Assembly (NCBI RefSeq): GCF_001447785.1
Contig: NW_015172017.1
Location: 730,748 to 794,747, forward strand
Direction of reading: 5' to 3'
Source of the DNA: Gekko japonicus
Taxonomy: Eukaryota
Length of the DNA: 64,000 nt
The notes under the pieces are model-generated. The model was not told the DNA's origin. It saw only the letters and a list, made by a program, of their open reading frames with translations, and searched no databases. Below, piece after piece: positions 1 to 58,470 of the stretch (positions are counted from its first letter, which is position 1; each line of letters opens with the position of its first letter). The position numbers were made by a program, and so were the translations under genes.

Positions 1-912
1 CCCGTTCACTCCCCCCCCAGTCTCTCTCTCTCTCCCCCGTCAAAGCTTGGCCTCGCCGGGCTGTCTCTCCCCCCTCACCAGTCTCTCTTCCCCCTCCCCC
101 CACTCTCTCTCTCTCTCTCTCTCTTTTTCCCCGTGTACCGAGGCCCGCGCGGCTTACATCCGCCGGGCCTCGGCAGTCTCTCTTCCCCTCCCCGACTTTC
201 TTCCCCCTCCTCACTTGGCGGCGGGGTGTCTCTCGGAGCGGCTGTTTCCCCCCCCTTCCGGCTCCGCATCGAGGCTGCCTCGGGCCTCGCTGTTTCCCCG
301 GCCGCCTGCCTGTCCGCCCGGCCTCCTCCAGGTGGCTGTGGCAAGGTCGGCTAAAGAGCGTTCGTGCGCATGCGCACGAACACTCTGGCACTTTCGGGGG
401 GATTTAAACATCCCCCCGATATTTTTTTTTAGTTTTTAGATTTTTGTGCACCCCTGGGGACTGCCCCAGGAGTGCACAGACCTCCCCCTGCCCCCCAAGT
501 GCCCCCGAAGTGCGGATATAGCGATCCGCACGGAGGGGGCAACTTGGCTATTAGATATAGTGATAGATGTTTGTGGTGTCTTCTGTGGACTCGTTTTCCT
601 TTGACTCAGCCTCAGGGATATGGACGCTCATACTTAGCAGTATTTTCTAGCATTTTGCAGCCTTCTGCTTATTGGGCTACTCCACAGGTTTGATCCAACG
701 GGAGACTTTGATTTATGCCACTTCCGGCGGCTTCAGCTCAGAGGTGTGTGGTGGCCTGTCTTGCTGAGTTTAAATTGTTTGGCACCTAAATATTCTCTGT
801 AGATTGCCCTTGTATTATCTATTTAATGCATGCCATCCTGTCAGTGGTGTAATATGATTTGCAAATCTAAACACAATGCCCTTAAAAAAAAAAAATTGGT
901 GCGTGCATCACT

Positions 913-918
913 TTTATT
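913..918 (-). terminator. Candidate CFI polyadenylation signal AATAAA
   Basis: tttatt on + strand, about 250 nt past the stop codon. Confidence 0.55.
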
Positions 919-1170
919 GTAACATGCAAGATGAGTGAAAAAGCAATGATTGGTTTTTTAGAAGGCCAACAGACTTTTCAAAGAACAATGGACATTTCTG
1001 AGAGTCCTTATTGCTAAACTACCAGGGCATGACCCAGTCAGAGGTAACAACTTTTGCATCCGTTGATTTCAGTGGAAGAAACACGCTTAACTTGAGCTGG
1101 AATTATGTCCCTTCTACAGCCGACCTTCCATTATTGCAGCAGAGAAGGAGAAAATCCTCGATTCCAAATG

Positions 1171-1388
1171 TCACACATTAAACCGAGAAACCGCAGCCTT
1201 TCCAGTATGCCGGCTAATCCATTCGAAATAATCTGCTACCTTTGTGTAAACACCGGGGTGTTCTGCTTCACCACAGCGCTCACGGAAACCCACAATACCC
1301 CAAACATAAGCTACATTATTAGAGTCGAAACAAACCAAAGGTCCTCCTGAGTCACCTGCACAGGAATCTACAGAACCATCATATGTAC
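1171..1388 (-). CDS. CFI: CFI exon 13 (catalytic Ser, stop)
   Basis: [20 protein letters not shown]...[15 protein letters not shown]...FNV*. Confidence 0.95.
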
Positions 1389-4300
1389 CTGAGGGAGAAA
1401 AAGCAAAAAAACCACCCCACCTCATTGTTAGATGCATCATTTTGTGGAACTGAAACATGACCATTTTTTGGTAAGTGCTCAGACTGTCGTAAAGCTTGAT
1501 ATTGGGTGCATTGGTGCATTATTCAACTCTAAACTGGGATTTTTCCACGAGAGGCTATAAATAAGGTTAAGAATTCCACCTGGCACAGAACACCCCTACT
1601 TCCTTTGACCAAGAAGCCTGAATCTGGATATCACAGCAAACTGGAGTTTGGTTGAGGACGTTTTGATTCAAGCGTCATATGTGAAGGAAGAGAGGGGCAA
1701 ATGCACAAGCATGTGTTTGTGCCCATTGTGACAAATTTCAGTAAAATCTCAGTTTGACATCTGAATGCAGCAACTGATGACAGGCAACACAATCCAGAAT
1801 ATCCAGAAAGGCCCAAGTGTATATATAGATACCTTGTTCATACAAGGTGTTACTTAGTGATAATGGATGTTGCTTCCAGTTAACATTTCACACACTGGGT
1901 GCATTCAGATGGGGCGTTTCAGCCAGCATAACCTGTACCGGTTGGAACCGGTGCAGTTTATGCCGGCTGAAACGCGATCAAACTTAACTCCTGTCTGCGG
2001 AGCCCATCGCTGTATGCCCGTTCACATGCAGTGGGCATCGGCGGTTTTTTTTTTTTTAAAGCACTCAGTTTGAGCATGCGCATAGGCAGCCATCCACAGA
2101 ATGGCGATCTTCACGCATGCGCAAAACACCCCGTCTTACATTTAAAGTTTAATGGTAAGGACTTACCTTTAAAGTTTGAAGACCAAACTGGCCTCCCTGA
2201 GGTCTCAGAGTCCTCCAAAACCTTAAACTAAGGACCTTTTCTTTTTTTTTTTAAACAAACGCCGGGGCGAAGCTTCGCTCAAGCGTATATCGCCGACCTA
2301 AAAAAAAAAGGCGGGCAAAAACCGGAAGCCTCGGGCTTCCGAACGGAAGTGGCTCTACAACGTTGGAGAGCGATCAGATGGGGGTAAAGCGATTACAACC
2401 GTTGCACTCAGGATACCACCACTTGGGGACCTAGTGGCAGAATACAACGGTGTAAAGCTCTTTGCAACGGTTAGGAACGGAAGGCAGATGTTCGCCGTGT
2501 GAACGCCGGTAAGTACACCGATTCTAACCGGCACCTATACCGTTGCAAATGCCCCGTCTGAACGCACCCAAAGTCTTATAGAAGTTTATAGAGTTATTGT
2601 AAAAGTTCTATATGTTGTATTTAAAAAAATCAAACAAAAAGCAAGAGACTGAATTCTTGTTAACTTAGAGAATTGCCTATGGGCAAACCTACTCCCTATG
2701 CTATTCATTATTTGCCTCTCTGCCCAATAACTGGCCAAGAGCTTTGTGACTGCAGAGGAAGTTATGCTGTTCCCAGCAGATGGGGAGGTATTTGAACATT
2801 TTGCTACATCGGTGGCCGCTCTAGATGGCTAGACTGTTATCACCGTAGGGGGTGCAATTTGGATTTACTGGGTTGGATCCAGTACAAAATTTCCACTTGT
2901 TCTAGAGATCCTGAATGAGAAGAAATGCAAGGAAAAACCCAAGGTAGCCACTTGTGCTGCCAGATTTCTTGTATCCCCACTACCCCCACGGTAGTCCCAC
3001 TGTGCTAAGTCCATTTATATTTCTGCTTGTGTGCACAGCTGGATCTAAGGTACCGAAACAAATCAGCCTAAATCGTCTTGGCTCACGGGTACGTGCCAGG
3101 GTGGGCACCGAAGTTACATGAATCACACTCACCTGCACATTCCATGCCTTTAAAATAACGATCCTTGTAGATTTCAGAGCAGTTGGACATTAAGTTAACA
3201 TAGCCCCATTGAAGTGTAAATTGTCTTTGATTACCTAAAAGAGGAATAAAAGAGCAAAAAAAAAAAAGAGTTTAGAAATTGTTCAGAATTCAGTAAAAAC
3301 AAGCTGGGGACCCATGCGATTGGTGTGGTGGCCCAGAACAGGAGCAGACTCCCAAGGCCTGTGAAAAGTACGCAACCAGAGAGTGATTTCAGCAAAGCGT
3401 ACTTTATTCTATCAGGAACAAGATGACTTTGGCTGGCTCGAAGGCCGGCTTATATCCCCCGAGAAACCGCCACCCAAAACACACACACCCCACTTCCCAA
3501 TAGGTTATTTACAGTGGCCGAGAGTCCCATAGGCTCTGGGCCGGGAACCTAGCCCCCTGATTGGAGCGGGGTAGGATCCGTATAGTCCATTGTCTCTTGG
3601 AACGAAGCTCGACGTTTGTCTCTGGACTTGTCTGGACTGGGTACATTACAGCCTGCCTGTCAAAAGAGCTACTTCCTCAGCCTGACAGGACAACTACTCC
3701 ACCTGAACGAGAAGAGCAGTCCCTATCCCAGTCTCTAGTCTCTTCCACATGGAGGTTGTGCCTGCATTCCCTCCAAACTGGAGTGGGGTGTGTGTGTATG
3801 TGCTTTGTCATGCTTCCCCCCCCCCCCAACCTGCTATGGTGCTATCCTTCCAGGAAGATCATGCTGAAAATAGGTTTGGGGGATCTCAGTGTTCCCTCTA
3901 AGCTGAGTGAGTGTGAGCTAGCTCACAGGTTTTTTAGCCTCCGGCTCACAGATTTTTGCCTTCGCTCAGGAAGGGATGGCTCCAGAGCAAACGAGCTTAT
4001 GCAGTAGCCAAATCGCACTCTCACAACGTTAATGCCAGTAGCTCACAGAGTAGAATTTTTGCTCACAAGACTCCACAGCTTAGAGGGAGCATCGTTTGGG
4101 ATCTGTGTAGACGGGGAGGGGTGGATTTCTGCACCTCTCCACCCTCCTCCAGTTTAATTGCCTCTCCATTTCCATTGCCCCTGCCATTCTGCGTTCTCAC
4201 CCCCCACCTACTACCAGTTTTTAAAAAATGGTAACAACATTACTGCCGGGTAGGGTTGCCAAGTCCCGCTGCCAACTGGCAGGGGATGGGGGGGGACTTA

Positions 4301-7300
4301 TCAGGAGAAACGGGAAGGCCTAGGTAAGCCACATTGCTGGCATTGCACAGGAAGTGATGCTATCAGGCTGTTGACAGCACTGTGTTGACCAATGCCCCCT
4401 CTAAGCTGTGGGGTCCTGTGAGCAAAAATCCCACTTTGTGAGCCGCTGGCATTAAAGGTGGGAGCGAGCGGTTTGGCTGCCGCATCAATGAGTTGGCTCT
4501 GGAGCCATCCCTTCCTGAGCTAGGACAAAAATCTGTGAGCTGGAGGCTAAAAAACTGTGAGCTCGCTCACACTGACTCAGCTTAGAGGGAACACTACATG
4601 ACACTCTGGTATTTGGGCAAATAACGCTGTAGTAAAAACAGGTTCTAGGTAAAAGGTAAAGGTTTCCCTTGCTCGAAAGCCAGCCAAGTCCAACTCTAGG
4701 GTTGCGGTGCTCATCTCTGTTTCAAAGCCTGAGAGCCAGCGCTGTCCGAAGACGTTTCCGTGGTCATGTGGCTGGCATGACTAAACACCAAGGCGCATGG
4801 AACGCTGTTACCTTCCCACCGAAGTGGTACCTATTTATCTACTTGCAATTTCTTGCTTTCGAACTGCTAGGTTGGCAGGACAGTTTCTACCATAGAATTT
4901 TTGCCCAAATACCAGTGTCGCCCAGATGTCTCTGGTGTGTTGATACCACTTCCTGCGTAATGCTGTCCACGCGGCCTGGGCCTTCCTCTCTCTCCTGGTA
5001 AGCCCCTGCTGGCCAGCTGATCAGCAGCTGTGGGTTCCTGCCTGGTGGTGGAGGACCTCTGCCTCCACTGAGTACAGATGCCAGCCTCCAGGTGGGACCT
5101 GGGGATCCCCCGGAATCCCAGCTCATCTCCAAACTACAGAGATCAGTTCCTCTGAGAAAAATGGATGCTTTGGAGGGTGGACTCTGCGGCATTGTGCCCC
5201 ACTGAGGTCCCTGCCCTCCCCAGGCTCCACCCCCAGATCTCCAAGAGTTCCCCAACTTGGAGCTTGCAAAGCTACCCCCCATCCCCCGCCGGGGACCAGA
5301 ATTGGCTACATCTGGTTGGAGGTGCCCCTTCCCAAAAAAGGAGATGCAGGCTGCTTATATATCCATTTACAACCACACCCATTACACACACACACACACC
5401 TGTGATAGGGAGTTACAATCTTATAGGTTCTTCGTAGAATCCCTACTCCGTAGAATCCTAAAAGGAATCAACCCTGACTGTTCCCTGGAAGGCCAGATAA
5501 TGAAACTGAAGCTCAAATACTTTGGCCACCCAATGAGAAGGGAGCCCTCACTGGAGAATAAGACCCTGGTACTGGGGAAGACTAAAGGTCAAAGAAGACG
5601 GGGACGGCAAAGGATGAGATGGTTAGACAGTGTCATAGATGCAACGAACATGAAATTGGGCCAACTTCAGAGGACGGCGGAAGACAGGAAGGCCTGGCGT
5701 AATCTGGTCCATGGGGTCGCGAAGAGTCGGACTCGACTGTGCGACTGAACAACAACAAAATGGGCAATAAACATGAATAAGGAAGTTTTGATTGAAACCT
5801 GGGAATATTTGTGGAAAAACTCTATTAAGATATCGCCCTGTACTAATATTAGAGAGAATTGCTATAAAATGATGTATAGGTGGTACATGACTCCGAAAAA
5901 AATTGCAAATATGAACCAGAATATGTCAAACAAATGTTGGAAATGTAAGAGTCATGAGGGCTCATTTTACCATATGTGGTGGACTTGCGAGAAAGCTGTA
6001 GACTTTTGGACAAAAGTCCACAAAGTAGACAATGGAAAGGATGAAATGGTTTAATTTTAAATGTTGAATTCCTAAGAAAATAAAATTTGTTTACCTAAAA
6101 AAAAAAAAGAAGTTCTCCGTAGAATCCCTACTCGCCGGTTGGCTGGTTTTAGGATCCTAGGACTCCTTGTCCCTGGTAGCGAAGCTTCGCTAGTTGGTCT
6201 GGCCACGTGGCGCCCCGACCGCATGTGCGGTTCCGCTAGTACACAACACCAAATATCTCAGCTGTTAGTCCTGCTGGAAGTTTGAAGCTGCTGAGGCTGA
6301 TTACATATTGGAGATTCGCGTCCGTTCTCGTATTGAATTGTTATTGTTCCCGGTGCATGTGAGTAAAAGCATGGAAACCACAGCAACTTAAAGGGAACAC
6401 CAGGATGAAGGATGGACTTTGATATGTTGTAATCAAACATCCGGACACAACATCGCATTATTTCATTAGTTCTCCATCATTCTGTGGATTTTTCTGTTGT
6501 AGTGTATTATCACACAAGTTCTTCATTGCTTCCGTCTTGTGTCTTTTCTTATGTGGCTACTTTGTATGCGCTACTTTCTGTCACATGTTCTTTAGCATTT
6601 TGGCAAATTGTAAGTAGTTAAGACGCTGCAGGCTGTGGAAGGTCGGTCATTCAGCAGTTCGAGACCCGAGTGCGCCGCATGACGGAGTGAGCTCCCGTCT
6701 CTAGTTCCAGCTCCTGCCAACCTCGCAGTTCGAAAGCAAGAAATTGCAAGTAGATAAATAGGTACCTCTTCGGTGGGAAGGTAACAGCGTTCCGTGCGCC
6801 TCGGTGTTTAGTCATGCCGGCCACATGACCACGGAAACGTCTTCGGACAGCGCTGGCTCTTTGGCTTTGAAACAGAGATGAGCACCGCAACCCTAGAGTC
6901 GGACTCGACTGGCTTTCGAGCAAGGGAACCTTTACCTTTACCTTTTAAGTAGTGAGTCTGTTTACTACACTTGTTTTTGCCTTCTGTTATTGGATTATTA
7001 CACAAGAGTGTCATGAACGTCGTTGAATGCGCCCTGTGGAGCTGCCAATTTCTCCGGGAGGAACTGCTCTCTGTAGCCCGGAGACCAGCTGCCATTCCAG
7101 GAGAACCTTGGCTCATTCTAGCTTGGCAGGGTTACAGGCCAGCTGCAATGGATGAAGTCATAATTCCATTACTCTGTCATAAAATTCTAATTACCTTCTG
7201 CCCGTCCCCAGCCGGACACTTTGCACTGGTGGCCTGCTCTGAACATATAAGGGGACCAGGGGATGCAGGCGGCCACCGTGTTGGGTCGAGAACACATCTG

Positions 7301-10300
7301 CCTTGGATACTTGTCATTCATTTCCAGCAGAGCAATATCGTTTTCATATGTTTGGGGATTATAGTCCTCGTGGATGATCACTCTTTTTAAAGAAAAGGTT
7401 TCAATCCTATGGCTCCAAATTAACATATTTAACAAGCCAGTCCATATCACAGAGGCACGAACATCGCTTTCTCTGAAAAAGAAAACAAATACAAATATAA
7501 AACCTTAGCCTGTAGATATTCAGTACATGAATTAATCAGTCAAAGGGGTTATATAATTATTCACCCCACCCCGGTGTGCGCATCACCAGGAAGTGACGTT
7601 ATGACACCAGACACGCTGGGGGCAGGGCCAAGACCATCCGAGGGGAAACTGTGGTTTCCCCTTGGATGGTCGTGACCCCGCCCCCAGCGTGCCCGGTGTC
7701 ATAACGTCACTTCCTGGTGACATGCGTGCAGCACGCTTCACGCACGTGCGCTCCAGGATCCACCCGGGAGTCCCCCGCTACGGAGATAAGCTAGACTTGG
7801 CAACCCTACAGCCTCCAGGTGGTGCCTGGAGATCTCCGACTATTACAGTTCATCTCCAGATGACCAAGATCAATTCCCCTGGAGAAAATGACTGCCTCGG
7901 GCGGTGGAGTCTATTGAATCACACCCTGCAGAAGCACCTCCCCTCCCCAAGCCCCGCCTCCCCCAGGCTCCGCCCCCAAAATCTCCAGGTATTTTCCAAC
8001 CCAGAGCTGACAACCCTACCTTCCAGCGATGATCCTGCTTTATACCCCCTCTGGTGGTCATGGTGGCTCTTTCAAGAGCATGCCCCATGAGCCTTTGCGA
8101 AACAGGCAATTCACACAAGCCCATGTATACATCCGCTATCTGCATGTCTGGTCTAAGGTCTCTCTAAGTACTTGCAGTTTACTAATTAGTACTAGGCCCA
8201 AAGCCCCTTTTTCCCAGTACAGGCTTGCACGGCAGTTGAGACGCAATGAGAATATTTGAAGCCAGACTAGCATGGGTCAGAACGAAGCTAGCAAAGAATC
8301 ATGGGCCCCGGTCAGACGTGCCGTCAAACACGCGGGGGGGGGGGGGCATGGCTATTTGCGCCGTCGCAGTCTGATGCGCCATTATGTGATCAGATGCGAC
8401 GGTGGCTTCCCCGCAGCAAAGAGGACGACGGGGGAGGAAGCCGCGCACCGGCGCAATCACACGTTGGGAGGTTCCCATACGCAGCCCGTGGCAAAGCATT
8501 TGCCACTACATACGGTGAGGTTTTTTTTTACCACACGGCTTTGGCGGCTTGCCATGGGTTCACCACGGGAGTGCTATGCCTCCCAGATGTTTAGTAGTTT
8601 TCCCCTCAGATGGCTGTGGCCCCGCCCCCAGCGTGCCTGGCGTCATCACGTCACCTCCGGCTGACGTGCACGCCAGGGTGGGGTTTCCCCCGGGGCCCGA
8701 TTCCGCGGTGGCGGAAATTGGGCCTCCAAAGCGGGGGGGGGGGAATCCGCCCTCCAGGGGGACTTGGCAGCCCTATGTAACTCTCTGAGTTGCTAGGCAC
8801 GTGACATCCTGAGATGAACAAGAGCAAAAGGGGGAGAAGCGAAACCACACTGCAGCTAGGCCCGGCCCACCCCCACACAAGTGTTGGTAGCTCAATTGCT
8901 TGGAATGTGCTAACTGGGAGCTCCAAGGGCAGTGAGTACTATCCAGTGTTCCCTCTAAGCTGAGTTAGTGTGAGCTAGCTCACAGTTTTTTAGCCTCCAG
9001 CTCACACATTTTTGTCTTAGCTCAGGAAGGATGGCTCCAGAGCAAACTAATTTATGCAGTAGCCAAGTTGCTTGCTCACAACTTTAATGTCAGTAGCTCA
9101 CAAAGTAGAGTTTTTGCTCACAAGACTCCACAGCTTAGAGGGAACATTGGCTACCATCCTCAGCCGAAAACAACTTAGCAAGGTCACAGCGCTCTATCTG
9201 CTATCTCTAACCATCTCTTGGAAAGTTTCTATAGGCCTCTAAACAGCCTGAACCAAAGATTTTACTTTATAGAACAGAGCAAGGAGCCATTTTTCTTTAC
9301 ACATACTATGACTCCAAGCATTCTTTGGGGGAAACCATGCCCATCAAAGCAATACACAGCTGATATAAACTACTAAAATATAACTTTGTTCAATCCTTTG
9401 CTCCAAGGCAAGGCTATACTGTAATCTAGCTAGAACAAATTTGATGCCTGAAAACCCCCAAAGTCACTTACCTAACACAGTGTGCAGCAGTGAGAATCCA
9501 ACAGCCCCCAATATAAATCCCTCCACAGGTCACATGAGATCCAGGACGTATAATTGCCACCTGCCAAGGAATTTCACCCTGCACAAAAGACAGAAAGGTT
9601 AAATTGTATCTCTTGCTGTGTACGGATTATGCTTTTTTAAATTATCTCCCTACTGTTTTGCTGTGGCTCAGTGGTAGAGCATCTGCTTGACATGGAGAAG
9701 GCCCCAGTTTCAATCTCCAATGTCTCCAGTTAAAAGAGTCTGGCAGGAGATGATGTGAAAGACCCCCTACCTGAGACCAGATAATACTGATTTTGATGGA
9801 CCAAGTGTAAAATTCAGTATAAGGCAGTTTCATGGGGCCATGTGTGACTACAATCCTTCATGTATTGCCCAGACTTCAGCACTTCCTTAACTATTTCCTT
9901 AACTTTAGGTGCAAAGTTCTGCATTCTGAGGGTGCGTTCAGACGGGGCGTTTCAGCCGGCATAAACTGCACCGGCTCCAACCGGTGCAATTTATGCCGGC
10001 TGAAACGCGACCACACTTACCACCTGTCTGCGGAGCCCATCGCTTTATGCCCATTCACACACAGCGGGCGTTGGCTTTTTTTAAAACTTAGTTTGCGCAT
10101 GCACATAGGCAGGCATCCACAGAATGGCGATCTTCGCACATGCGCAAAACACCCCATCCAGAAAAGCATGCCCTGAAGAGAGGACTTACCTTTAAAGTTT
10201 AAAGAGCAAACTGGCCTCCCTGAGGTCCCGGACTCCTTTAAAACCTTAAACTAAGGACCTTTTCTTTTTTAAAAAAACGCCGGGGCGAAGCTTCGCCCAA

Positions 10301-13300
10301 GCGCATATCGCCGACCTAACAAAAAAAATGGGGGGCGAAAATCGGAAGCCTCGGACTTCCGAACGGAAGTGGCTCTACAACAGTGGAGAGCGATCAGACG
10401 GGGGTAAAGCGATTACAACCGTTGCACTCAGGATACCACCACTTGGGGACCTAGTGGCAGAATACAACGGTTTAAAGCTCTTTGCAACGGTTAGGGACAG
10501 AAGGCAGATGTTCTACGTGTGAACGCCGGTAAGTACACCAATTCCAACCGGCACCTATACCGTTGTAAATGCCTTGTCGGAACGCACCCTGAGGGTGTTT
10601 GAACACACAACATATAAAATTGCCCTTTACTCTTAAGGAAAGATCCAGGTTGGGGAACTCCTGGAGATTTGGGGGTGGAGCCTGGGGAGGACAGGGACCT
10701 CAGTGGGGTACAAGGCCATACTGTCTACCCCCCGAAACATCTATTTTCTCCAAGGGAGCTGCTGATCTCTGTAGTCTGGAGATGAGCTGTAATTCTGGGG
10801 GATCCCGCGCAAATTTGCTCTGGAACCAGGGGTCATTTTGTAGAAAAAGAGGTGCAGGAGCTCATTAGCATAACTCATTAGCATGACTTATTTGAATATG
10901 CCACACCCCCTGACATCACCGGAAGTGTGTCAGAAGGCAACACCCACCGCTCAGGCGCCACCCCAAAAATCTCCAGGTATTTCCCAACTCAGAGCTGGCG
11001 AGCCTACTTGGAGAAAAACTGCTTCGAAATTGCCTCAAAACGACCCCTGAAAAGCCACCAGAGCAAATCTGGAAATGGAGAGCTCGGTTACTCTTAGGAT
11101 TCCCTTGTAAGGCTACATTTTTGCCCCTGCCTTTACTCCAAGGAACTCTGAGTGGCATACACGGTCCTCTGTTCTCCTCCACAACTATGTGAAGCAGGTT
11201 AGACTGAGAGTGTGTCATTTTGGAGGTGCAGCCATGTTGGTCTATGGCAGCAGAACAAAAGAGAAGTCCAAGGACATTCGTTCCAGCATGAGGTTTGTGG
11301 AGTCAGCACTCATTTCTTCAGATGCTAAGAAGCTCAAGGTCATCCACTGAGTTTCTCTCCCATACGAAGCAGGAACAGGAAGCAGGAGGGAGGGGTTGAG
11401 GGAACTGGGCAAAAGGAGCTGCNNNNNNNNNNNNNNNNNNNNNNNNNNNNNNNNNNNNNNNNNNNNNNNNNNNNNNNNNNNNNNNNNNNNCTGCTCATTA
11501 CCCCTCAAAATGACCCCTGTTTGGAACCATCCTTCCTGAGCTAAGACAAAAATTTGTGAGTCAGAAGTAGGGTTGCCAAGTCTGGGTTGGAAAATACCTG
11601 GAGACTTTGGGGGTGGAGCCAGGAGAGGGCGTGGTTTGGGGAGGGGAGGGGCCTCAGCATAGTACAATGCCACAGAGTCCACCCCTTCAAAGCAGCCATT
11701 TTCTCCAGGGGAGTTGATCTCTTTCGGCTGGGGATCAGTTGTAAAAGCGGGAGATCCCCAGGCCCCACCTGGAGGCTGGCAACCCTAGCCAGAAGCTAAA
11801 AATCTGTGAGCTAGCTCACACTAACTCAGAGGGAACACTGATCCCGCGGTCCCACCCGGAAGCTGGCATCCCTAGACCACAGATGTCCAACGTCTTGCCT
11901 AATTGTAGAACTTACAGCCAATAGATCATGGAGCGGATAAAAGAAACTGCCATCCTTTCATTCCCCCCCCAGCATAGAAAAATCAAGATTTCACTCAATC
12001 ACCTGCTCCGTGAATAGTAAAGGCCTTTCAAAACCAGGTTTCATTCTGTGCAATAACTCTGGACTCTGTCTGTACAGTCCTCCTCCCTTTGGGGGGGGAG
12101 GTGGGAATTGAGAAAGAAGAAAAATACGGGAACATTGGAAGTCATGGGTTAATAATTAACTCCTACTTTCCTTCCATTTATTTTATTCAGAGTTTTGTCC
12201 TGGATAATTATAACCACAGATGCAGCTCCTAACATTACTACAGAATTTATTAGAAGGCATTGCTGTAATGAAGCTTGCACCGTTATACAAATTAGTGACT
12301 GGTAACTTCACCTCTCGCGCGGGATGGCCCCCGATGATTCGCTTCCGGCGAGTAACGGTGTGGCTTGGAATACCACAGTGTATTTGGGGTAAAAATGTTT
12401 TGATCTTTCTTCTTTCTTTAATAAAACAGATAAGTGGTGTCATAATTATATTTATTAAAAAAAATCACAGCATTGCGATTTGATTTCTGTGACTTCCTAG
12501 TTATTTCAATTGATGTCGGTTATAAGCATGACTTATAAAAAGCAAAAACTGTACTTTGCGAGTTGTGAGCGAGCGATTTGGCTACTGCCTAAATTAGTTT
12601 GCTCTGGAGCCATCCCTTCCTGAGCTGAGACAAAAAATGTGTGAGCTGGAGCCTGAAAAACTGTGAGCTAGCTCACACTAACTCAGCTTAGAGGGAACAC
12701 TGGTCGGGGGGCGTTGGCGGTAAGTCAGGGGGCTGGGCCCCGAGATGCCCCACTGTAGCTATGGGCCTGAACTCCCTCCTCGTTTTAGATGCAAAGAGGC
12801 AGACACATGGATAACTATTTGGGGGTCCCTCCGTCACGTCTAATTGGGCCCTTAGAAGTTACTCCCGTTGAACAAAACAGATTTTACTTTTGACTAAAAA
12901 TACACAGTATGGGGCTATTAGTCTTTCCGAAAGCAGTCAGGGCGAGTTGTAGGACCCTGTGAGAGACATGACTCTTATGATAAAGCACTCTCAGGTTACC
13001 TGCGTCCATGGATTCCTCCTCAGTTTCTTCTGCTCTTTCTGTAGTTAAAAAACAAGTATATACAGCTAGTGTAAATTCTCATCAGTAAAAAAGGAAGGGC
13101 TCTTTTATAAAGGGAACAGGTTTGCAGCCTGTTCCACTGTTTATTGTATATATTTCCTTATGGCACTGGTTTCATTTTCTTTTGCACTGTCTATGATGTG
13201 TCCTATCTGATAACTTGGGAGGGGCATCATTTCTAATATTTGTGATCCTAGTCCCATTGCATTACTTGTTGGAGGCCATCATGCTATTTGATTACATTGT

Positions 13301-16300
13301 TTTACAGTGTGTAATCTGCCTGAGTCTCATGAGAAAGGTGGGCTATAAAGTATATTAAAAAAAATAAGGTTAAAATAGGTCCACTGACACACAATTCCTG
13401 CTACCCAGGATGACCAGACAAACAGATAAAAGCAGCTGACTAGAATCTGGGAGACCCGAGGTTTGAAGCCCAATTCAGACATGACGCTCAGAGTGACATG
13501 GGGTGACTAACCTACCTCACAGGGTTGTTGTGAGGACAAAGTGGTAGGGGATTTGTAAGCCATCCTGACCTTCCTGGAGGAACAACGGGATGAAAATGTG
13601 ATGGCAAGAGAAGATAAGAATGGGATATGTATCACCAGAGGTCAATTCGGGAGGGGGATCGCAGTTCCCCCGGGTGAGGTGTGGGGGGACGGGCACACGA
13701 CGAAGCCCCGCCCCCTGCTTCCAGCCGCCCCGCTTCCAGCCCTCATTCAGCCAGGAGGAGGCAGGAGAAGAGGGAGGGTAAGTTGCTTCCTCCCCGCCTC
13801 TCCCCACCCCTGCCTGCCTGGGGCCAGGGAGGGCCTTGGCGGGGCTTCCTCGCACTCTCGCCGGCCTTGCAGGTCCACCGTCGGGCCCCTGATGTCAGGG
13901 GGTGTGGCATATGCTAATGAGTTATGTTAATGAGTTCCCCTAGCTCCTTTTCTACGAAACGACCCCTGTGTATCACACAGAGTGCTTTGGGCCAAGGCTA
14001 GATTTGTATACTGATATCCTTGAAAGAAGATATCACTTCAAAAAGAACAGTAAACAGTATGATGCGATATCAAAACAAAAAAATTACCTCTTTCATTTTC
14101 ATCAGCTGTTTCATCACCTTTCCCCCCCAAAAAAAATACACACAAATTAATATAAAAATACACAAAGCAGGTATAGTTAACACTCTGTGTTATGAACTAG
14201 ACTACGCTCTGTTTATCAAGGTGGGCTGCCGTGTTGATCTGAAGCAATCGAACAGAGTCCAATGTCTCCTTTAAGACCAACAAAGTTTTATTCAAGATGT
14301 GAGCTTTCGTGTGCATGCACACTTTGAAGTGTGCACACGAACACTCACATCTTGAATAAAACTTTGTTGGTCTTAAAGGTGCCATTATGCTCTATTTATG
14401 TTATTTCTCTTTAGTTGGTCTTAAAGGTGCCATTATGCTCTATTTATGTTATTTCTCTTTAACTGCAATACGGATTGCTTCCCTAACAAAATTCAAAAGC
14501 AATTCTGTAGCAATTTTAACCTTTTCTAACTGCTTGGAGGACTACCACTTACTTAATCGTCTGTCTGGAAGTGAAAACCACATCTCTCTTACAGTTGCCA
14601 ACTAGATCTTGGCTGCACCAAAAATCTGAGCTAGTGCTATGAATTCACTGCTTAGTAAAATGCGCAACTGTTACTATTTTAATTTTAACCCGATATTTTA
14701 AATGTATGTAATAATGACCGCTTCCTAAAGTGTTGAATGTTTTTTCTTTCTCACGTGTTTCAACCATTGCTAAAAAGAAGAAATTCCAACAAAAGAAGAA
14801 ATGATATATAAATTATTGGAAACAGCAGAAATGGATAATTTAACTTTGCAGTTACAAGATAAAAAAGAAGCAGCGTTTGAGAAAATCTGGTTAAGATTAT
14901 ACAAATGGATAGAAATTTACCTTTGAGAACTGATAATGTGATTATAACCAAATGAAGAACTGCTCGAACATTGTATATAAACTGGATTAGGTGTAAAAGA
15001 AAACGGATTTACTATATTATGGAAATTTAAGTAGAGACAAGAGTATATGCTCTAGTGTTTATTGTTTGTCTTATGTCTTATTGTTTGTCTTATGTTGTTG
15101 CTTGTTTCTCAATTTCTCTTTGAAACTAATAAAAGTTTCTTTTAAAAACAAAAAGCATTGTTCTAGCATCTAAGAGATTATGGGCTATGTAGACTTAATT
15201 GAATAAAAAAGAATTCAGAAACATAAGTTATATAATACCTTTTATTAGATCAATCCAAAAAGCACAGCTTTCACGATCTCCAGAATTGTTCATTGGGCTT
15301 GATTTTGCTATGGACTAATGCAACTATCTACAACTGCATTATCTAATATGGGAGTACTGGCATTTAGCCAGTAAAAGGCACTAAGGAAGTTTTGCTGAGT
15401 AATGCCACTACAGTTTTAGCTTGCATTGACTTTTTGCTTAGTGCATCATCTTAATTTGGGGGGGGGAGCTGGTCAAGGCAGTTTACAGAATAAGTCATAA
15501 TAAAAATATAAAACATCATAAAAGGTATTAAAAAACAACAGCATGAACAACATAGCTAGAGCATAAAACAACATAACTCATGTAACTACTTAAAGAGGGT
15601 TTTTTAAATTAAATCAAGCTCCAGGCTTGTTAATACAAGGATAACGGCATTTCGCCTTTGCCTCTAGTCCTTTTAAAGGAGCTATGTGTTCCATAAAGAC
15701 ATTTGATCCATTATTAGCTATAATAATGCTTTCAGCTGGATGGCTTCCATTTTTCGCTACTTGCTCGTAGGGTGCGCATGCAGCCTGATAACAGGCACAC
15801 CCCTTTTTAGAACATCCATCATGGGGAAGAATTCTGGAGAACTTAAAACCTTGCACATGTGTTATTTTGGTTGGTCTTAATAAAATAAAATATTCCTGCC
15901 AACCTAGCAGTTCGAAAGCAAGAAATTGCAAGTAGATAAATAGGTACCACTTCAGTGGGAAGGTAACAGCGTTCCGTGCGCCTTGGTGTTTAGTCATGCC
16001 GACCACATGACCACGCTGGCTCTTCGGCTTTGAAACGGAGATGAGCACCGCAACCCTAGAGTCGGATTCGACTGGCTTTCGAGAAACCCTTTACCTTTAA
16101 TAAAATATACACATGGCTGTTGTTGTTGTTTTTAATTAGTCACTTGTCATTACATTAAAGCATCTGAAGTGGTGTGTGTGTACATAAAAGCTTATACCCA
16201 AAATAAAACGTTGTTGGCCTTAAAGGTGCTGCTGGACTCCGACTTTGTTCTGTCGCTTCAGACCAACATGCCTACCCATCTATTGTCATTACAATGTTAG

Positions 16301-19300
16301 CTTAGGCAGCATCCTGAATTTGTTGTTGTTGTCTGAAAGTCCAGCTGACCTGGCAACTGGGGGGGGGGGCTTGGAGGCAAGGGCCATTCAGAGGGGGCTT
16401 GCCATCGCCTGCCTCTGCATCACAGCCCTGGTATTCCTTGGAGGTCTCCCATCCAGGTATGAATGAATAATTTATTGCAGTCCACGACCAGATACAAGTC
16501 CACACAGCAAAACATTTTTAAGTGTGAAGGTATAGATGTTAAAACACTCCAATCAGATGAACAGATCTAGAACTATAACAGAGTAGTTCCCATCCAAGTA
16601 CTAGCTTCTAAGTCCTGATGAGGTCCGGCTTGCCTGGGCAATCCAGGACAGGGCCTGAATCCGTTGAAGAGAGGGTGGCGGGGGTGAAGTAACAATGGTG
16701 TCAATCAGCCAATAGGCATTAAGTCGCTGGCTTAACAAAGCGGTCAGAGAGATTCAGCAAGAACACAACTTTATTCTTCCGCTCGAACACAACTCCAACA
16801 CAGATCAACATCTGATAGCCAGAACAGCCTTTACATTGCAGCTGTCCTGCTTTTAAACATTCCCGGCCAATGTAGCCACACCCACTGTACAAATACCAAC
16901 CAATAAGGTTGTTCACATAAGGATCAATCACGGACGTTCCCGCTCAGGGAGCTTGCTCGAAGTGATTGGCTTGTTACTTCCTGGGCTAGCAATACTATTG
17001 GATGGATTTGGATCCTAGCCCAGGAGGATGCTTTACATTACACTTCAATTAGATGTTTCACAACATATCATGCATTCAAGGTGGCTTTGAATACACTACA
17101 ATTGGTAACAAAGAAGCTTACCTGCACACAACTGGCGAGTTTCGTCTTCTCCCGTTAAGCAGTCCATTTCCTTGTTACACAGATACTCCTTTGGAATACA
17201 CACGTCTGAGTTACAGTGGAAGCTTTCTCCTCTGCATGCTGTGGGAAATAGACTATTCAGCATACAAGAGAAGTGATCCAAAGGATCATCATCAACACTG
17301 CCATAGAAGGCTACGGACACACTATAGTCAGATTTTAAGTATACGGACTATGCAATGGAACCGGCGATTCTGAACATTGACTCATTATCAGTGGAATGAC
17401 CGCTCTTCTACTTGTGTGTGTGTGTGAGTGTGTATGCATCACAACCATTTATGGTGGTACACCATTAATTTTGTGGAACAACGGGAGCCACTTCCTCTTT
17501 ATTGTGACTCTGGTGTTAGCCCTTGTTCACGATTGGTTGTTTGATATAATGGAAGAGGGAGGCTGAGGCAGATAGTTTTGTTCACTCAGCATTTTTAATT
17601 GGGTTTGTTCACTACTCAACAAGAGAATGATGAAATTGACAAGAAGAGGTTTGACGTTCTGGTTTGGTCAATTTTACTCTGAGAGAGGTGAACCTTAACC
17701 TTCTCGCAACCCGTGGTGAGATTCAGGCCCATAGCTGCGGTGGGGCCATTCGGGGCTCCGCCCCCTCTCTTAAACGGACAGCCCCACAAGATTTTCTTCT
17801 GTAAAAGCTGTTAAAAGCCATTTTAAAGCAGTTCTAAATGTGTGTGTTCCCATGGTGAGCCACGTGCCGAGAACAGAGCCGAGAAGCCCGGCTACACACG
17901 ACATCTCTGGTTTTTTCTTAGCGCCCGCCAGGGAGAGAAATTACAGCCAAGGAGTGGTGGGGTGAGGAGATTGTGGGGAGCTGGATTTATTTTTTAGCTG
18001 TAAAATTCAAGCCCCGCCTGGCTACAGGCCTGGTGAGATTCTTATCCATGAGTGGATACCATATGGCTACAGACTGTGTCCCAAATCATGTTGAAAAAGG
18101 GTGGTCCAGCAGCAGGCGCGTACCTTTGCAACACAATTCATCACTTAGGTCTCCGCAGTCATTTATTCCATCGCATGTTTTATCCGAAGGGATGCATTTG
18201 CTGTTGACACAGTGGAATTCGCTGGAGGAACATTCTGTCAAATGAGGAGAGAGACAAGTATTTTTGAAGAAAAATTGCTGGAAAAGGAGAAACTTCTTAA
18301 GAGGACTAGGTTCTAGAATGAATGGATTACGGTAGCCAATCCCCCTCCATGAGGGAGGGGTTTCCCCTGATTTTGAGGGCCCCAATCCACTGCTTGCCAA
18401 CTGGCTGGTGGGGGAGGGGAGCCCTGCCCCTGAAGAGCCCCACCACGCTTGACGTGCGCAGCGCAATGACGTCATCGCGCTGGGCATGCTAAAACTATGG
18501 TGACTAGATCAGATTAGTTAGGGCTATTAGTGCCGCGACCAATGTTCACTGTAATCCCCCTCTCCGACTGAGCTGAGCAGTTCACATCTTGAGCAGAATT
18601 CAACTACTGTCATCTTAAAATGGGCCATGGGCAGTGCAAGACGTTGTGTGGCTCCCGGTTGCTGCTGAGCGGGGCTTCCTGTGTTAATGAGCGACCATTC
18701 ACTTGCACAGCTTAGAGGGAACACTGGCTGGGACAAGAAAGTTACATCTTGTGATCTAGGTCAGTTCCATAGCCGCGGTGAGAAAGAGATGGGTTTCCCC
18801 TCTCCTTGCAGTAAGGGTTGAAGGACAAAGAAAGCGGAAAAGAACAATAAAAACTCCTATCTTTGCGCCTCTGAGCTCAGGAAATTACTCTTAATGAGCC
18901 AGTCAGAGGGAAGCTTCTGGGACCCCTAACTGTGGACTCCAATTCCCAGGTGCAACAATTCTTAAAGATACAGAGCAGTTTTACTAAACTACAGATAACG
19001 CTGACTGGGTCCAGCACAACTACACTGGACCAACAGCTAATATCATAAGCAATGAATCTTTGTAACACGAGCTCATTGGCTTCTAATGTTACAGCATCAC
19101 TAAAGTGAAACATGCAGTGTAAAATTACTCACCAAGCATATGATACAGCTTCCCCTCACCCACCTTGGAAACCATATTTTACCTACCTCTAGGTGTTGTG
19201 TGGCACACCACCTTGGCAAGCTTACTGTCACCCCTGCTGGTTCTAGCTAAAGAGCATTCGGCTAGGCTGGTCTCTATGCCTCTGCAAGTCGCTTTAAGGC

Positions 19301-22300
19301 ATTCCGATGAATCCCAGGCATCATTTGGGTGCCCCAATTCTATGCGGTCAGCCCCCCTGCAAAATGCAAACAAAAATGTGTCGAGAACCACGTGTGTTAT
19401 TTAGTTCAGACTTTAATGTCCACTGTGGACAAGGAGAGAGGATGGTTTGTTTTTTATTTTTCAGTAATTTCACTACTTCTTGGAAAGCTACCTGCCTCAG
19501 AGAAGGCAAGATCAAAGGGTATCTCTAGTGCTATCTCTAGTGCTTCTGATTCCACGACGGGGATAAAACTATCTAGCTGTGGCTGTGGGATTTTGACAAG
19601 TGCCTGTGGGAGGGGACGCAAGGGGGAGTCAAGAGCCAGACAGAGCTCAGCGCTTCCAGAACGTGTGTCCATTTGACCCTTTAAGCCAGAGATGTCAAAC
19701 TCATTTGTCACAAGGGCCGGATCTGACAAAAATGTCACTTTGTCGAGCCGGGCCATGTATGCCATAAACGTAATGCCAGATACCGGAGATATAAACTGTA
19801 TAAAGGACAGCAGCTGGTCAGCTCCGAGTTGGTGCATCTTCACTGCAAGGCCCCCTGGGCTGGGAGGGGGGGGCTAAGGGAAAACCCATTTGGGCAGACT
19901 GGAGAGCCAGCGGTGCAGCACTGGGCAGACACCCCCATGCTGCTCGACTGCCGTGCTGAAGCCACAATTGGAGTGGCTCCACGCACTCCCCCAAAGACGT
20001 CTCCTGCTCCCTCCCTTGCACTAGTTGCTTGCAGGCTGCATAAGAGTCCTGGGTGGGCCGGTTCCGGGCCCCAGGCCTTATATTTGACACCCCTGATGTA
20101 ATGAGTCTAGGAGTATCATTGGTCTCAGCCATGCTATTGAAGTGTGGATCTGACAACCCTGTTTTTTAAGATGTGGGTCAGCTGCCATAATGTAGCCTTT
20201 GGGACTGAGTTATGTACAGCAGTATCCTGCATGAGACACCCTGTGGCAGCCCCGTAGCTAGGGATTTTTTGGGGGATGGGGCCTTGGGGGGGCCAGTAGC
20301 CAATTTAAAAAAGTTAATAATAATATCTTTTGATTTATTAATCGCTCAATCCTGCAGAGCTGCTGGCTCTGAGCGATTTACAGTTACACATATTAACAAG
20401 GGACTAGCAATGATTCATAGGGGGTAAGGGAGGACAACATATAAATCTTTTAAAGTTGCACACGTTTGCAGCCGACGGGTTTTTTTTTCCAGCTGTAGAC
20501 TTAGACGTGTTCCAGACGGCATTCACTCGGCTTGGCTTGATGATGTCAGTTTTTCCAGGACTGCTTCGAGTTGCAGCGTTGCACTGCCACCGCCTGGCCG
20601 GATTGGCCCATCGCAGGCTTCTTAATGCCGAAGAGATCCTTCCAGGCTTCCGAGCTTACAAGCTGGACATTCCGTTTCGCTGGCTAACACCTCCCCCCAC
20701 CGGGGGGTTTAATTAAATTAACTTTGATTTAATTGGTGGGACCCCTTAGAACTCCTAGGGCAGCCCTGTACCCCCCAGGCTCCAGGGCAAGGGGGGGGCA
20801 ATGCCCAGCAGCTGTAGCTTCCCTCCTCCCCCCCCCGGCAAGGGCAGGCCGTCCCTGCAGAGCGTCTGGCTCTCTCCTCCCTGGAACCCAGTTCCTCTTC
20901 CCACGGCACAGCATAAGGGGCAGCCTGATGTCCACCCTCAGCTCCCTCCCGGGGCTGGGAGAGGTGAGGCGCGCGGCAGCCAGGCTGGCCACAGAGCCAC
21001 TGCGTGTGGTTTTGTTGGTACAATGGAGCGCAGCCAGGGTCAAGAGGAGGTGGCGGCTTGCCTCCTTGCCTGCCTGGCTGGGCTTACCTGCTGCTGGCGC
21101 ACGGCACAGGGAGCATCTAGTGGAAGCCCGAGATGGAGGCTTCTCCTTGTGCCATTCATGCTCGCTGCCTGCCCGGGCCGCTCTCTTACGCCCAGCCTCA
21201 CTGCTGCCGCGGCTCCTGCTTCTGCTGCCCTCATCCTCCCTGCCGACAGGCAATCGGGGTGAGGTGGCCTGGAGGGGAGGGGGAGCCATGGGTCCGGGAG
21301 GGGGCCCATAAAAACCACTAGGGGGCCAGGCCCCGTGAGCCCCATGGTAGCTACGGGCCTGCGGCCTGTGGTAACTTTATCCCACCATTCCTACTGTCCT
21401 TGTAAACCCATTCTAACAGGACACTACGGAATCCCAGGGTACAGGTGGAAGGCAGAAGGCGCACTTAGGGTTGCAGACTCCACGATGGGAAATTCCTGGG
21501 GATCTGGAGGCGGAGCCTGGGGAGGGGAGGGCATAAGGCCATAGGATCCATTCCGAACGCTGCCATTTCTTCCGGAGGATCTGATCTCTGTGGTCTGGAG
21601 ATCGGGTGTAACTCCAGGAGATCTCCAGGCCCCACCTGGAGGTTGGCAATCCTAGGTACATCAACCTTACCAGGCTTAGCAGCTCCTGGTTATATGGGAC
21701 ATCTCCTGGGAACCCTATAAGTGCTGCTTTGGGTTTCAAGGTGGAGGAAACAAAAAATATACAAAGAAGAAGAAGAAGAGGAGGAGGAGGAGGAGGAGGA
21801 GGAGGAGGAGGAGATCGGATTTATACCCCGCCCTTCACTCAGAGTCTCAGAGCGGCTTACAATCTCCTTTCCCTGCTCTTCCCCACAACAGACACCCTGG
21901 CTGAGTTCAGACTGGCAGTTTGAAGCCGGAGGGAGTCGTGGCAAAAAAAGACCCGGAACAGACTGTTCCGGGTTTTCCGGTCACACTGCACCGACTGATA
22001 CAGGAGCATACCGGGGAGGAGGCGCAAGGGAGCGTTCGCACTGTTGGCCCGCCCCTGATGGAGGCACGGCTGTAAGGCTCAGCCCTCTTTTTGGAAATCT
22101 GGAATGGGAGCTGAGGTAAGGAAAGAACTGGCCATGACTCAGTTTGAAGGTTGGCTGGATCCAACCCTGTGCTACAGAGGTCTTTACAGATGCTGGCTCT
22201 TTGCTAGACAGTGGCACCTTCTTTAAACCTCATACTTATCAGCATAACATGTTTTCCCCGTCACATAACCTTACTCCAGAAAACGAAGATGTCTGCAGAC

Positions 22301-23740: not shown

Positions 23741-23813
23741 GATGAAGAGTATCTTCCTGTCTGTTTAGATCTTCTTTCCTTGCAATTCCCCCCTTCCTAT
23801 TTTTCTCGATGCG

Positions 23814-24171
23814 TTTAATTTTTAACCACTAGTAAATATTTAAAAAATCGTTTTGAAAGGTACTTCCTTGTGGACTGATGGTTCTGAACTCGGAGAGGAC
23901 CGTGTCTCAGTTTAGCCTAGTTCGTAACTGCGGAAAAGGTAAGTGAAGATCCCTTTCTCACCCTTAAGGAGTTTCACCTTGTAGCTACTTTACACAGAAA
24001 CGTCTTTGGACCGGCTGCTGTACGCAGATGAAAATGTCCCCTCTTCTGCCCACTTCTCATCCAGGAGGCTCATATTTCAAGGTTCTTTTGGTCAGTTGCT
24101 CAATTTCCTGGCAAATGGATTTTTTAAAAAAACATTGTGTGCTTAGTTCTGGAACTGCTCACTTCTGGGAA
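23814..24171 (-). promoter_or_regulatory. CFI proximal promoter with HNF1-, FOXA-, C/EBP- and STAT3-like motifs
   Basis: GTTAAAAATTAAA on minus strand (23814-23826), GTAAATA (23832-23838), TTGCTCAAT (24096-24104), TTCTGGGAA (24163-24171). Confidence 0.45.
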
Positions 24172-24499
24172 GAGTATTAACAAAAGCGACAAAAGGAAAT
24201 CTGGTATATCTTATTCATAATGCTGGGGGAAAAAAGCATCACATAACAGGCTCTCATAATCGCATTCCTAAAATCTTGCCACATCACAATAAATATCTAC
24301 TTTTATTCTGACCTACTGAAACGTCAGGCTGGATTCCTAGAAACCTTTTCCTGAGAGTAAGTCCCATTGGATACAGTAAGGCTTACTTACAAGTAGACCT
24401 GCTTGTGCTTGGGGTTGCCAGCCTTCAGTTGGGGCCCGGAGTTCTCCTGCGATTGTAACTGATCTCTACAGGGATCAGTTCCTCTGGATGAAATGATCA

Positions 24500-24632
24500 T
24501 AGATCCAGAGGAATTAGCCATGTTAGACTGTTGCTACAAAATAGTAAAAAGTCCAGTTAGTGCCTTTAAGACTAACAAACTTTATTGAAGCATAAGCTTT
24601 CAAGAAACACAGCTCTCTTCGTCAGATGCATC
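24500..24632 (-). mobile_element. Penelope-like terminal remnant with hammerhead-like motif
   Basis: GCATCTGACGAAGAGAGCTGTGTTTCTTGAAAGCTTATGC on minus strand. Confidence 0.65.
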
Positions 24633-58057: not shown

Positions 58058-58470
58058 AAGAGGACCAATAGGACCAAACTAAATCACACAGATGGGGGGG
58101 AGCAGGCTGTTTCATCACATATATGTAATAAATATACCACTTCCGGGGGGGAGCCAGAGCTGAGGAGACACCAGGACTGACAACTGTCAATCTTAGCCAT
58201 TTGGATGGCACTTTCAGAAGTTGTCACAAGGGAGCATATCAGGAAGGGAGGTCTTTTACCTATGTAGGTCCTGGATCATAATGACTTTGTAGGTGATGAC
58301 CAGTTCCTTGCACTGAACTGAAAACTAACTGATGACAAATGAAGCGACAGCAGAAGAGGAGTAATATGCATCCTCTGCCTAGCTCGTGATAGTAATTAAA
58401 CTGCTTAACAGTAATTTTATATGATTGTGAAAATATGTAATTTTATAGTTATTGATCCTTTTAAAACTGT

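What the first reader, a model, noticed from the sequence alone, without database searches (positions are those of the whole stretch)
1282..1290. Factor I-like protease with a remodelled S1 pocket (SWG to GFR) but intact triad
Seen: the last exon reads [10 protein letters not shown]...[12 protein letters not shown]. Established: factor I and nearly all trypsin-like proteases have Ser214-Trp215-Gly216 here (human CFI VWGVVSWGENCG), and Gly216 keeps the entrance to the Asp189 pocket open. Here Asp189, Gly226 and the His/Asp/Ser triad are kept, but three adjacent codons differ and Arg sits at 216, in an otherwise open 596-aa frame. Inference: Arg216 could plug the pocket by pairing with Asp189 (reminiscent of the self-inhibitory 214-218 loop of complement factor D), change P1 specificity, or make a catalytically silent C3b/cofactor-binding decoy. 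Any of these would be an undescribed variant of complement regulation in geckos.
Basis: partly seen in the sequence, partly recalled or inferred. Interest (0 to 1): 0.78.

Follow-up and report, generated by a model that had tools for sequence, protein, structure and literature searches.

The report
Disarmed second copy of factor I
This gecko has a second, relocated and transcribed copy of the blood enzyme factor I that carries the same glycine-to-arginine change that inactivates the human enzyme, so it likely acts as a non-cutting competitor of the normal enzyme, and several other lizards and snakes show that change in their own extra copies.

Summary
SWG reads GFR at 1282-1290 in an intact 13-exon, 596-aa factor I gene, and an independent run with spliced transcripts shows the same letters. 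It is not the gecko's only CFI: a normal SWG copy sits between PLA2G12 and GAR1, and this one is a duplicate with introns inserted in a histone cluster. Arg216 is human G547R, published as secreted, processed and almost inactive on C3b and C4b. All three gecko C3 matches keep Arg at both cut sites, so no matching specificity switch is seen. The copy is under selection: heavy chain and protease core are conserved, while active-site loops change at or above the neutral rate. Extra CFI copies in eight squamate lineages have damaged pockets or triads; four carry Arg216 (Gekko, Zootoca, Thamnophis, Varanus), and they do not form one clade. Best reading: a non-cleaving factor I-related protein that likely competes with factor I on C3b (0.55). 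No activity or binding was measured. The Arg216-Asp189 plug is untested. Verdict: new variant of a known kind, interest 0.72.

The parts
1282..1290 (-). Gly214-Phe215-Arg216 (normal Ser-Trp-Gly; Arg216 = human G547R position)
   Evidence: same letters in run X1
1276..1278 (-). Arg219 (normal Asn; AAC vs CGC), shared with the G. kuhli and Varanus extra copies
1348..1368 (-). Asp189-Ser195 kept except Lys192Ala (1359-1357)
1171..1388 (-). exon 13 (end of protease domain, stop)
3133..3234 (-). exon 12
   Evidence: spliced joint to exon 11 in X1
7195..7472 (-). exon 11 (Asp102 at 7339-7337; cofactor-facing loop; Tyr405Ser, Lys97Gln)
9472..9578 (-). exon 10 (His57 at 9482-9480; fast-changing 34-41 loop)
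12312..12415 (-). exon 9 (RRKR linker 12350-12339 and IIGG light-chain start, both intact)
13000..13038 (-). exon 8 (acidic linker)
14088..14117 (-). exon 7 (acidic linker)
17122..17238 (-). exon 6 (LDLRA2)
18124..18234 (-). exon 5 (LDLRA1)
19187..19356 (-). exon 4 (SRCR)
22275..22419 (-). exon 3 (SRCR)
23130..23436 (-). exon 2 (FIMAC; C3b-contact patch kept)
23678..23740 (-). exon 1 (ATG, signal-peptide-like start)
569..28021 (-). duplicated segment: introns and upstream DNA align in order to the normal locus G000:C1697, mostly at about 80-90% identity

Best explanation
The window holds an intact, spliced second copy of complement factor I whose Gly216Arg change likely stops it cutting C3b and C4b, so it likely works as a non-cleaving factor I-related protein that docks on C3b and competes with the normal enzyme. 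Shown: duplication, intact frame, transcription, purifying selection on heavy chain and protease core, fast change in active-site loops, and Arg216 in four squamate lineages. Inferred from the human variant: loss of cleavage, by a clash with the scissile loop at the P3 proline or by blocking of the Arg pocket. Inferred and untested: secretion, docking on C3b through the kept FIMAC patch, competition, and so slower C3b inactivation where it is present.
For: (1) A normal SWG copy exists between PLA2G12 and GAR1, so this copy is free to diverge. (2) Human G547R is the same position. It is secreted, fully processed and gives no C3b breakdown; bead IC50 6.0 ug/ml vs 0.020 wild type and 2.7 for S525A; C4b cleavage is also reduced (PMC11792236). 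(3) Inactive human S525A, H380R and I340T inhibit wild type by 15-35% (PMC9832388). (4) Selection: 43 of 43 Cys kept, 0 of 95 highly conserved heavy-chain sites changed, no indel. A neutral copy at the lower (intron-based) divergence would carry on average 5.7 stops and about 12 indels; 0.2% of 5000 simulations had no stop. (5) Derived amino-acid changes: light chain 37 vs 9 in the normal copy (p=4e-5), heavy chain 29 vs 26. (6) C3b-contact patch: 7 of 9 positions as in the normal copy, the other two changed to hydrophobic residues; the RRKR-IIGG linker is intact. (7) 3 of 3 C3 matches keep Arg at both cut sites. (8) In 10 species with both copies in hand, the extra copy has a damaged pocket or triad, including outright triad loss in Anolis, Phrynosoma, Python, Liasis and Candoia.
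Against: No activity or binding was measured for the gecko protein. The human G547R passages that I read show no binding or competition test. Arg216 may weaken C3b binding rather than leave it intact. The cofactor-facing surface changed at 4 of 9 mapped positions. The triad, Asp189 and Gly226 are all kept, and loop change may exceed the neutral rate; both fit a protease with a new target as well. Japonicus-only changes at conserved sites (Phe365Ile, Tyr405Ser, Lys192Ala) could mean continuing decay of the protease domain. Three raw RNA runs had exon-bin depth of about 0-1.5, so expression is narrow or low, and the tissue of X1 is unknown. The human dominant-negative effect is modest.
Confidence: 0.55

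Rival explanations
1. It is an active protease with a new target: the loops were reshaped by positive selection for a substrate other than the Arg-Ser sites of C3b, possibly with an acidic residue near P1-P3 read by Arg216 or Arg219.
For: Triad, oxyanion hole, Ile16, Asp189 and Gly226 kept, also in the G. kuhli, Thamnophis and Zootoca Arg216 copies. Loop pN 0.172 vs neutral 0.07-0.11; 30.5 changes vs 20.0 or 12.2 expected (p=0.02 or 1e-5).
Against: Gecko C3 copies keep Arg at P1. With about 15% of light-chain residues changed on this lineage, keeping three triad residues is expected more often than not (my arithmetic). The Varanus copy has Arg216 together with Asp102Gly, and other extra copies lost the triad. 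Human G547R is inactive on both natural substrates.
Confidence: 0.2
2. It is kept for a heavy-chain or scaffold role unrelated to competition, or is a slowly dying duplicate. The loops drift because catalysis no longer matters, and Gly216Arg recurs because it is one base away and tolerated.
For: If all synonymous differences fell on this lineage, the loop ratio would be about 0.76, not above 1; GC3 is higher in this copy (0.43 vs 0.38). Release of sites conserved only for catalysis would also give repeated hits at 192, 215, 216 and 219. Exon depth is near zero in 3 of 4 runs.
Against: The frame and 24 of 24 splice dinucleotides survive at dS 0.22-0.27. Non-loop light chain (12 vs 27-45 expected) and heavy chain (27 vs 55-90) are under purifying selection. 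An Arg216 relative exists in G. kuhli. 4 of 7 changed conserved light-chain sites fall within 5 residues (p=0.0007).
Confidence: 0.17
3. It is still a working but weak factor I: Gly214 and Phe215 compensate for Arg216, and the copy adds dosage or works with one particular cofactor.
For: All catalytic residues and the C3b patch are kept. The human test had Arg216 in a Ser-Trp background only.
Against: About 300-fold loss in human G547R. Further changes lie at nearly invariant sites.
Confidence: 0.08

Closest known systems
Complement factor I (human CFI, PDB 2xrc/5o32; Gekko japonicus XP_015281804)
   Same: Same domain order and the same 13 exon lengths as the normal gecko copy, 490 of 596 residues identical, linker and triad kept.
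   Different: Ser-Trp-Gly replaced by Gly-Phe-Arg, plus Asn219Arg and Lys192Ala; ectopic locus; about fourfold faster light chain; 3 instead of 6 N-glycan sequons.
Human type 2 variant CFI G547R, and dominant-negative S525A/H380R/I340T
   Same: Same Gly216Arg; secreted, processed and inactive (PMC11792236). Inactive variants compete with wild type (PMC9832388).
   Different: In humans it is a rare allele (1 of 1886 alleles in that cohort); here it is the assembled state of a separate gene kept beside a normal copy.
Factor H-related proteins (FHR1-5; recalled, not tested)
   Same: Duplicates of a complement regulator that keep docking surfaces, lose regulatory activity and can act against the parent.
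   Different: They are CCP-domain proteins derived from a cofactor, not a protease. The likeness is functional and inferred.
Complement factor D self-inhibited loop (recalled: Arg218-Asp189)
   Same: An arginine in the 214-220 segment of a protease that keeps Asp189.
   Different: As recalled, factor D is active once bound to substrate and its arginine lies two residues before Cys220; here the arginines lie one and three residues before. No salt bridge was tested.
Serine pseudoproteases (haptoglobin, HGF, azurocidin; recalled)
   Same: Chymotrypsin fold kept for binding without catalysis.
   Different: Those lose triad residues; this copy keeps the triad and is predicted to be disabled at the substrate entrance.

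Membership tests
Complement factor I | FIMAC-SRCR-LDLRA-LDLRA-serine protease chain | tested here: met
   Exon-by-exon match to annotated gecko CFI; all 43 Cys kept; best PDB hits are factor I.
Complement factor I | RRKR furin linker and Ile16 start | tested here: met
   TRRKR-IIGG at 12353-12327.
Complement factor I | His57/Asp102/Ser195, Asp189, Gly226 | tested here: met
Complement factor I | Ser214-Trp215-Gly216 open pocket entrance | tested here: not met
   GFR; SWG in 254 of 264 rows.
Complement factor I | Normal locus between PLA2G12 and GAR1 | tested here: not met
   Those neighbours flank the C1697 copy; histone genes flank this copy on both sides.
Complement factor I | Cofactor-dependent cleavage of C3b and C4b | not testable with these tools
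   Predicted lost from human G547R.
Pseudoprotease (sequence definition) | Loss of a triad residue | tested here: not met
   Triad intact in this copy; lost in the Anolis, Phrynosoma, Varanus, Python, Liasis, Candoia and Erythrolamprus extra copies.
Pseudoprotease (functional definition) | No catalysis, binding kept | not testable with these tools
   Needs recombinant protein.
Pseudogene | Stops, frameshifts, broken splice sites, neutral rate, no transcript | tested here: not met
   None found; dN/dS 0.34 (95% bootstrap 0.25-0.48); spliced in X1.
Factor D-type self-inhibited protease | Loop Arg salt-bridged to Asp189 | tested here: inconclusive
   The one fold, of the Zootoca Arg216 copy as a single sequence, failed (pLDDT 40); no side-chain geometry was obtained.
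One ancient squamate paralogue clade | Extra copies form one branch | tested here: not met
   AU test rejects one clade for the 4 Arg216 rows (p=1.3e-4) and for all 8 extra-copy rows (p=1e-5) in a 20-row tree. Gene conversion could give the same result.

The most novel reading that the evidence does not exclude
Lizards and snakes have repeatedly evolved factor I-related decoys, the protease counterpart of the factor H-related proteins. Each time factor I was duplicated, selection disarmed the copy, four times with Arg216, and kept its C3b-docking chain. The decoy would occupy C3b-cofactor complexes, or microbial proteins that recruit factor I, and so keep complement running on invaders.
Probability: 0.3. 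Interest if true: 0.88.

Novelty: new variant of a known kind. Interest (0 to 1): 0.72.

Why it matters
As far as I recall, no natural antagonist paralogue of factor I is known in mammals; inactive forms are known as disease alleles linked to macular degeneration and aHUS. A reptile gene that carries a human loss-of-function change, and is conserved and transcribed, would show that a dead factor I can be useful. It offers natural variants to test whether inactive factor I competes in vivo, which bears on factor I replacement therapy (PMC9832388). It also warns that annotation by the catalytic triad alone would call this gene an active protease. Microbes can recruit factor I through its cofactor face (Pasteurella PmSLP-1, PMC12080921), which gives a concrete pressure that a decoy could answer.

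Tried and rejected
Assembly error: rejected (0 differences over 900-1389 in X1; Arg216 relative in G. kuhli). GFR as the usual reptile state: rejected. Retrocopy or haplotype duplicate: rejected (introns present, non-coding K2P 0.154, different neighbours). Co-evolved C3 with non-Arg P1: not found in 3 of 3 C3 matches; C4 was not examined. Single origin of Arg216: rejected on the protein tree, though gene conversion is not excluded. One-step multi-base event at 214-219: not tested; G. kuhli has Leu215, which fits a stepwise Trp-Leu-Phe path (inference). The single-sequence fold failed, so no fold search was run. No complex prediction was sent, because an enzyme-substrate pair with a solved human template would not decide the question. 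The level of this transcript against the normal copy in the same run is not known. The unlaid small-share run X20 was not used. The C3b-FH-FI structure paper was not held under the two ids tried, so contact residues come from secondary papers. Earlier-finding look-ups returned nothing. Literature: 'complement factor I' + squamate + duplication gave 0 papers; + lizard + paralog gave 3, none on this by title or abstract start; + CFI + reptiles + gene duplication + complement system gave 0; Gekko japonicus + complement + factor I gave 32, 15 listed, none on this; factor I / CFI-like / pseudoenzyme gave 117, 20 listed, none on this; a teleost isotype search gave 21, 15 listed. Subscription journals are mostly not covered, and no supplements were read.

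Full report
1. Observation. The minus strand at 1290-1282 reads GGT TTC CGT, giving [12 protein letters not shown]. It aligns without gaps to human factor I, which has VWGVV-SWG-ENCG. The gene runs from 23740 to 1171 in 13 exons, all introns GT-AG, and encodes 596 residues with no internal stop. His57, Asp102, Asp189, Gly193-Ser195 and Gly226 are kept; Lys192 is Ala and Asn219 is Arg. A contig of run X1 covers 900-1389 with no difference. The same run shows joints at the exon 10/11 and 11/12 boundaries with depth 207 and 158, against about 4-12 in unique intron pieces. The run's kind is not on record; I infer RNA from the splicing. In three raw RNA runs the exon bins had depth of about 0-1.5. 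The run index lists 16 of 24 runs as holding half or more of the stretch's words; of those 16 only X1 was laid.

2. What it is. The genome holds a second match at G000:C1697, 86% identical over the last exon. Its joined exons equal the annotated Gekko japonicus CFI, XP_015281804. It has normal SWG and lies between PLA2G12 and GAR1, the usual vertebrate neighbours as I recall them. The window copy has the same exon lengths, and its introns and upstream DNA align in order to that locus. Non-coding divergence is 0.154 (K2P over 7408 aligned bases) and dS is 0.22-0.27. Histone genes lie on both sides. So it is an old DNA-level duplicate that moved into a histone cluster. A G. kuhli protein with GLR-ERC groups with it at 100/100; that record is flagged unverified by its source and has a faulty gene model.

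3. Selection. Pairwise dN/dS is 0.34 (NG86; 200 bootstraps, 0.25-0.48). I polarised the 106 differences by majority of six gecko outgroups: 66 arose in this copy, 35 in the normal copy, 5 are unclear. In the light chain the split is 37 vs 9 (p=4e-5); in the heavy chain 29 vs 26. None of 95 highly conserved heavy-chain sites changed. Seven of 104 light-chain ones did, four of them within 214-219 (p=0.0007). A neutral copy would carry about 5.7 stops and 12 indels. Eight active-site and cofactor loops (75 residues) have pN 0.172 on this lineage, against 0.030 for the rest of the light chain and 0.034 for the heavy chain; the neutral estimate is 0.07-0.11. Caveats: I drew the loop limits from recalled chymotrypsin numbering after seeing the differences; I split synonymous change equally between the copies; the intron estimate is biased low. 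If all synonymous change were on this lineage the loop ratio would be 0.76. The safe statement is 'at or above neutral'. No branch-site test was possible without orthologous DNA.

4. What Arg216 does. Human G547 is this position; the mutagenesis primer printed in PMC11792236 reads through the same motif (passages seen). G547R was secreted slightly less, fully processed, gave no C3b breakdown in fluid phase, had a bead IC50 of 6.0 ug/ml against 0.020 for wild type and 2.7 for S525A, and lost most C4b activity. The authors predict contact with Pro1301 of the scissile loop. That a side chain at 216 also narrows the S1 entrance is textbook knowledge, recalled. PMC9832388 (passages) shows that inactive variants inhibit wild type by 15-35%, and that S525A and H380R form long-lived C3b-factor H-factor I complexes. 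The three gecko C3 matches keep Arg at both factor I sites, by alignment to solved C3 chains. Of nine C3b-contact heavy-chain positions (eight listed in PMC6568211, one in PMC11277764; passages), seven equal the normal copy and two changed to hydrophobic residues. Of nine mapped cofactor- or substrate-facing positions (PMC12080921, PMC9832388, PMC11277764, PMC11792236; passages), four changed.

5. Other squamates. Of 264 aligned rows, 254 have SWG and the 10 others are all squamate (rows include isoforms and come from the best 120 hits of each of three searches plus cluster members). Later members added Zootoca, whose CFI-like copy reads SWR-ET and is 96% identical to its partner in the heavy chain and 87% in the light chain. 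Arg216 therefore occurs in Gekko, Zootoca, Thamnophis and Varanus (the last beside a one-residue gap, with Asp102Gly). Hemicordylus has Asp216. Anolis and Phrynosoma lost all three triad residues; Python, Liasis and Candoia lost His57 and Ser195; Erythrolamprus has Asp102Asn and Gly226Ser. In 10 species I had both an intact and an altered copy; in G. kuhli, T. sirtalis and Varanus only the altered one was retrieved. Against the pattern: a Rhineura 'CFI-like' has intact catalytic residues and may be either copy, and all Podarcis records listed are SWG. Across eight lineages, position 216 changed in 6, Lys97 in 7 and one His in 6; random placement gave a maximum of 6 or more in 57 of 20000 shuffles. 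That null ignores that sites conserved only for catalysis are released together. Where the partner was in the tree, most extra copies group with their own species' or family's normal copy; the iguanian and Varanus copies are unresolved. One clade is rejected. Periodic gene conversion among tandem copies could mimic this. G. kuhli keeps Lys97, so at least that change in Gekko is parallel. Gly to Arg is one base away, so mutational ease may add to the recurrence.

6. Mechanism. Shown: duplicate, intact, spliced, scaffold conserved, active-site face rebuilt. Strongly inferred (about 0.85): no useful cleavage of C3b or C4b. Inferred (0.55 overall): it is secreted, docks on C3b through the heavy chain and competes with the normal enzyme, slowing C3b inactivation. 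Rivals: new-target protease 0.20; scaffold role or slow decay 0.17; weak factor I 0.08.

7. Known and new. It belongs to the factor I family by descent and architecture but fails the SWG and locus tests, and it is not a pseudoprotease by the triad definition. It would work like human dominant-negative factor I, and by recalled analogy like the factor H-related proteins. Six searches of the open library found no description of such paralogues; databases name them only 'complement factor I' or 'CFI-like'. Passages of PMC10776941 (gecko genome) and PMC5410159 held nothing relevant. Extra factor I isotypes in carp and shark are recalled, not checked. Supplements were not read and may hold binding data for G547R. 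Verdict: new variant of a known kind, interest 0.72.

Noticed in passing
window 33900-55000; L025, L026, L028-L031: Histone gene cluster (H1 at 35430-36185, H2A at 49574-50035, H2B- and H3-like starts nearby; further core histones on both flanks), so the CFI copy sits inside the cluster.
   Followed up: partly
L027:3584-3991: GATase_5 exon (PFAS-like) about 46 kb beyond the window start, on the far side of the downstream histones. A link of this region to the reptile MHC neighbourhood is recalled, not checked.
   Followed up: no
G000:C1779 (two copies) and C13536: At least three C3-like genes in this gecko; all keep Arg at both factor I sites, and two read Arg-Ala instead of Arg-Ser at the first.
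   Followed up: partly
P0277, P0128, P0213: The Zootoca, Erythrolamprus and Anolis extra copies all start the light chain with IAGG instead of I(I/V/L)GG, another repeated change.
   Followed up: no
window exon 2, residue 74 (human Val60): This C3b-contact position turned hydrophobic in the Gekko, Erythrolamprus and Phrynosoma extra copies while their partners have Ser, Gln or Arg; it might tighten C3b binding.
   Followed up: partly
P0075: A UniRef 'factor I-like' labelled giant panda groups with snakes in both trees; likely mislabelled or contaminant.
   Followed up: partly
L024:1589-4741; L030:902-3727; window 57095-58078: A long LINE frame with endonuclease and reverse transcriptase (1051 aa), a 942-aa frame with a BED zinc finger (possibly a hAT-type transposase), and a reverse-transcriptase fragment.
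   Followed up: no
window 26255-28021: Upstream pieces matching the normal locus are separated and partly repeated (two pieces match the same stretch), suggesting insertions or rearrangement in the promoter region after duplication.
   Followed up: no
G000:C1757:160671-160814; C5552: A second Gar1-family match and a second PLA2G12-family gene elsewhere in the genome (likely NAF1 and PLA2G12B).
   Followed up: no
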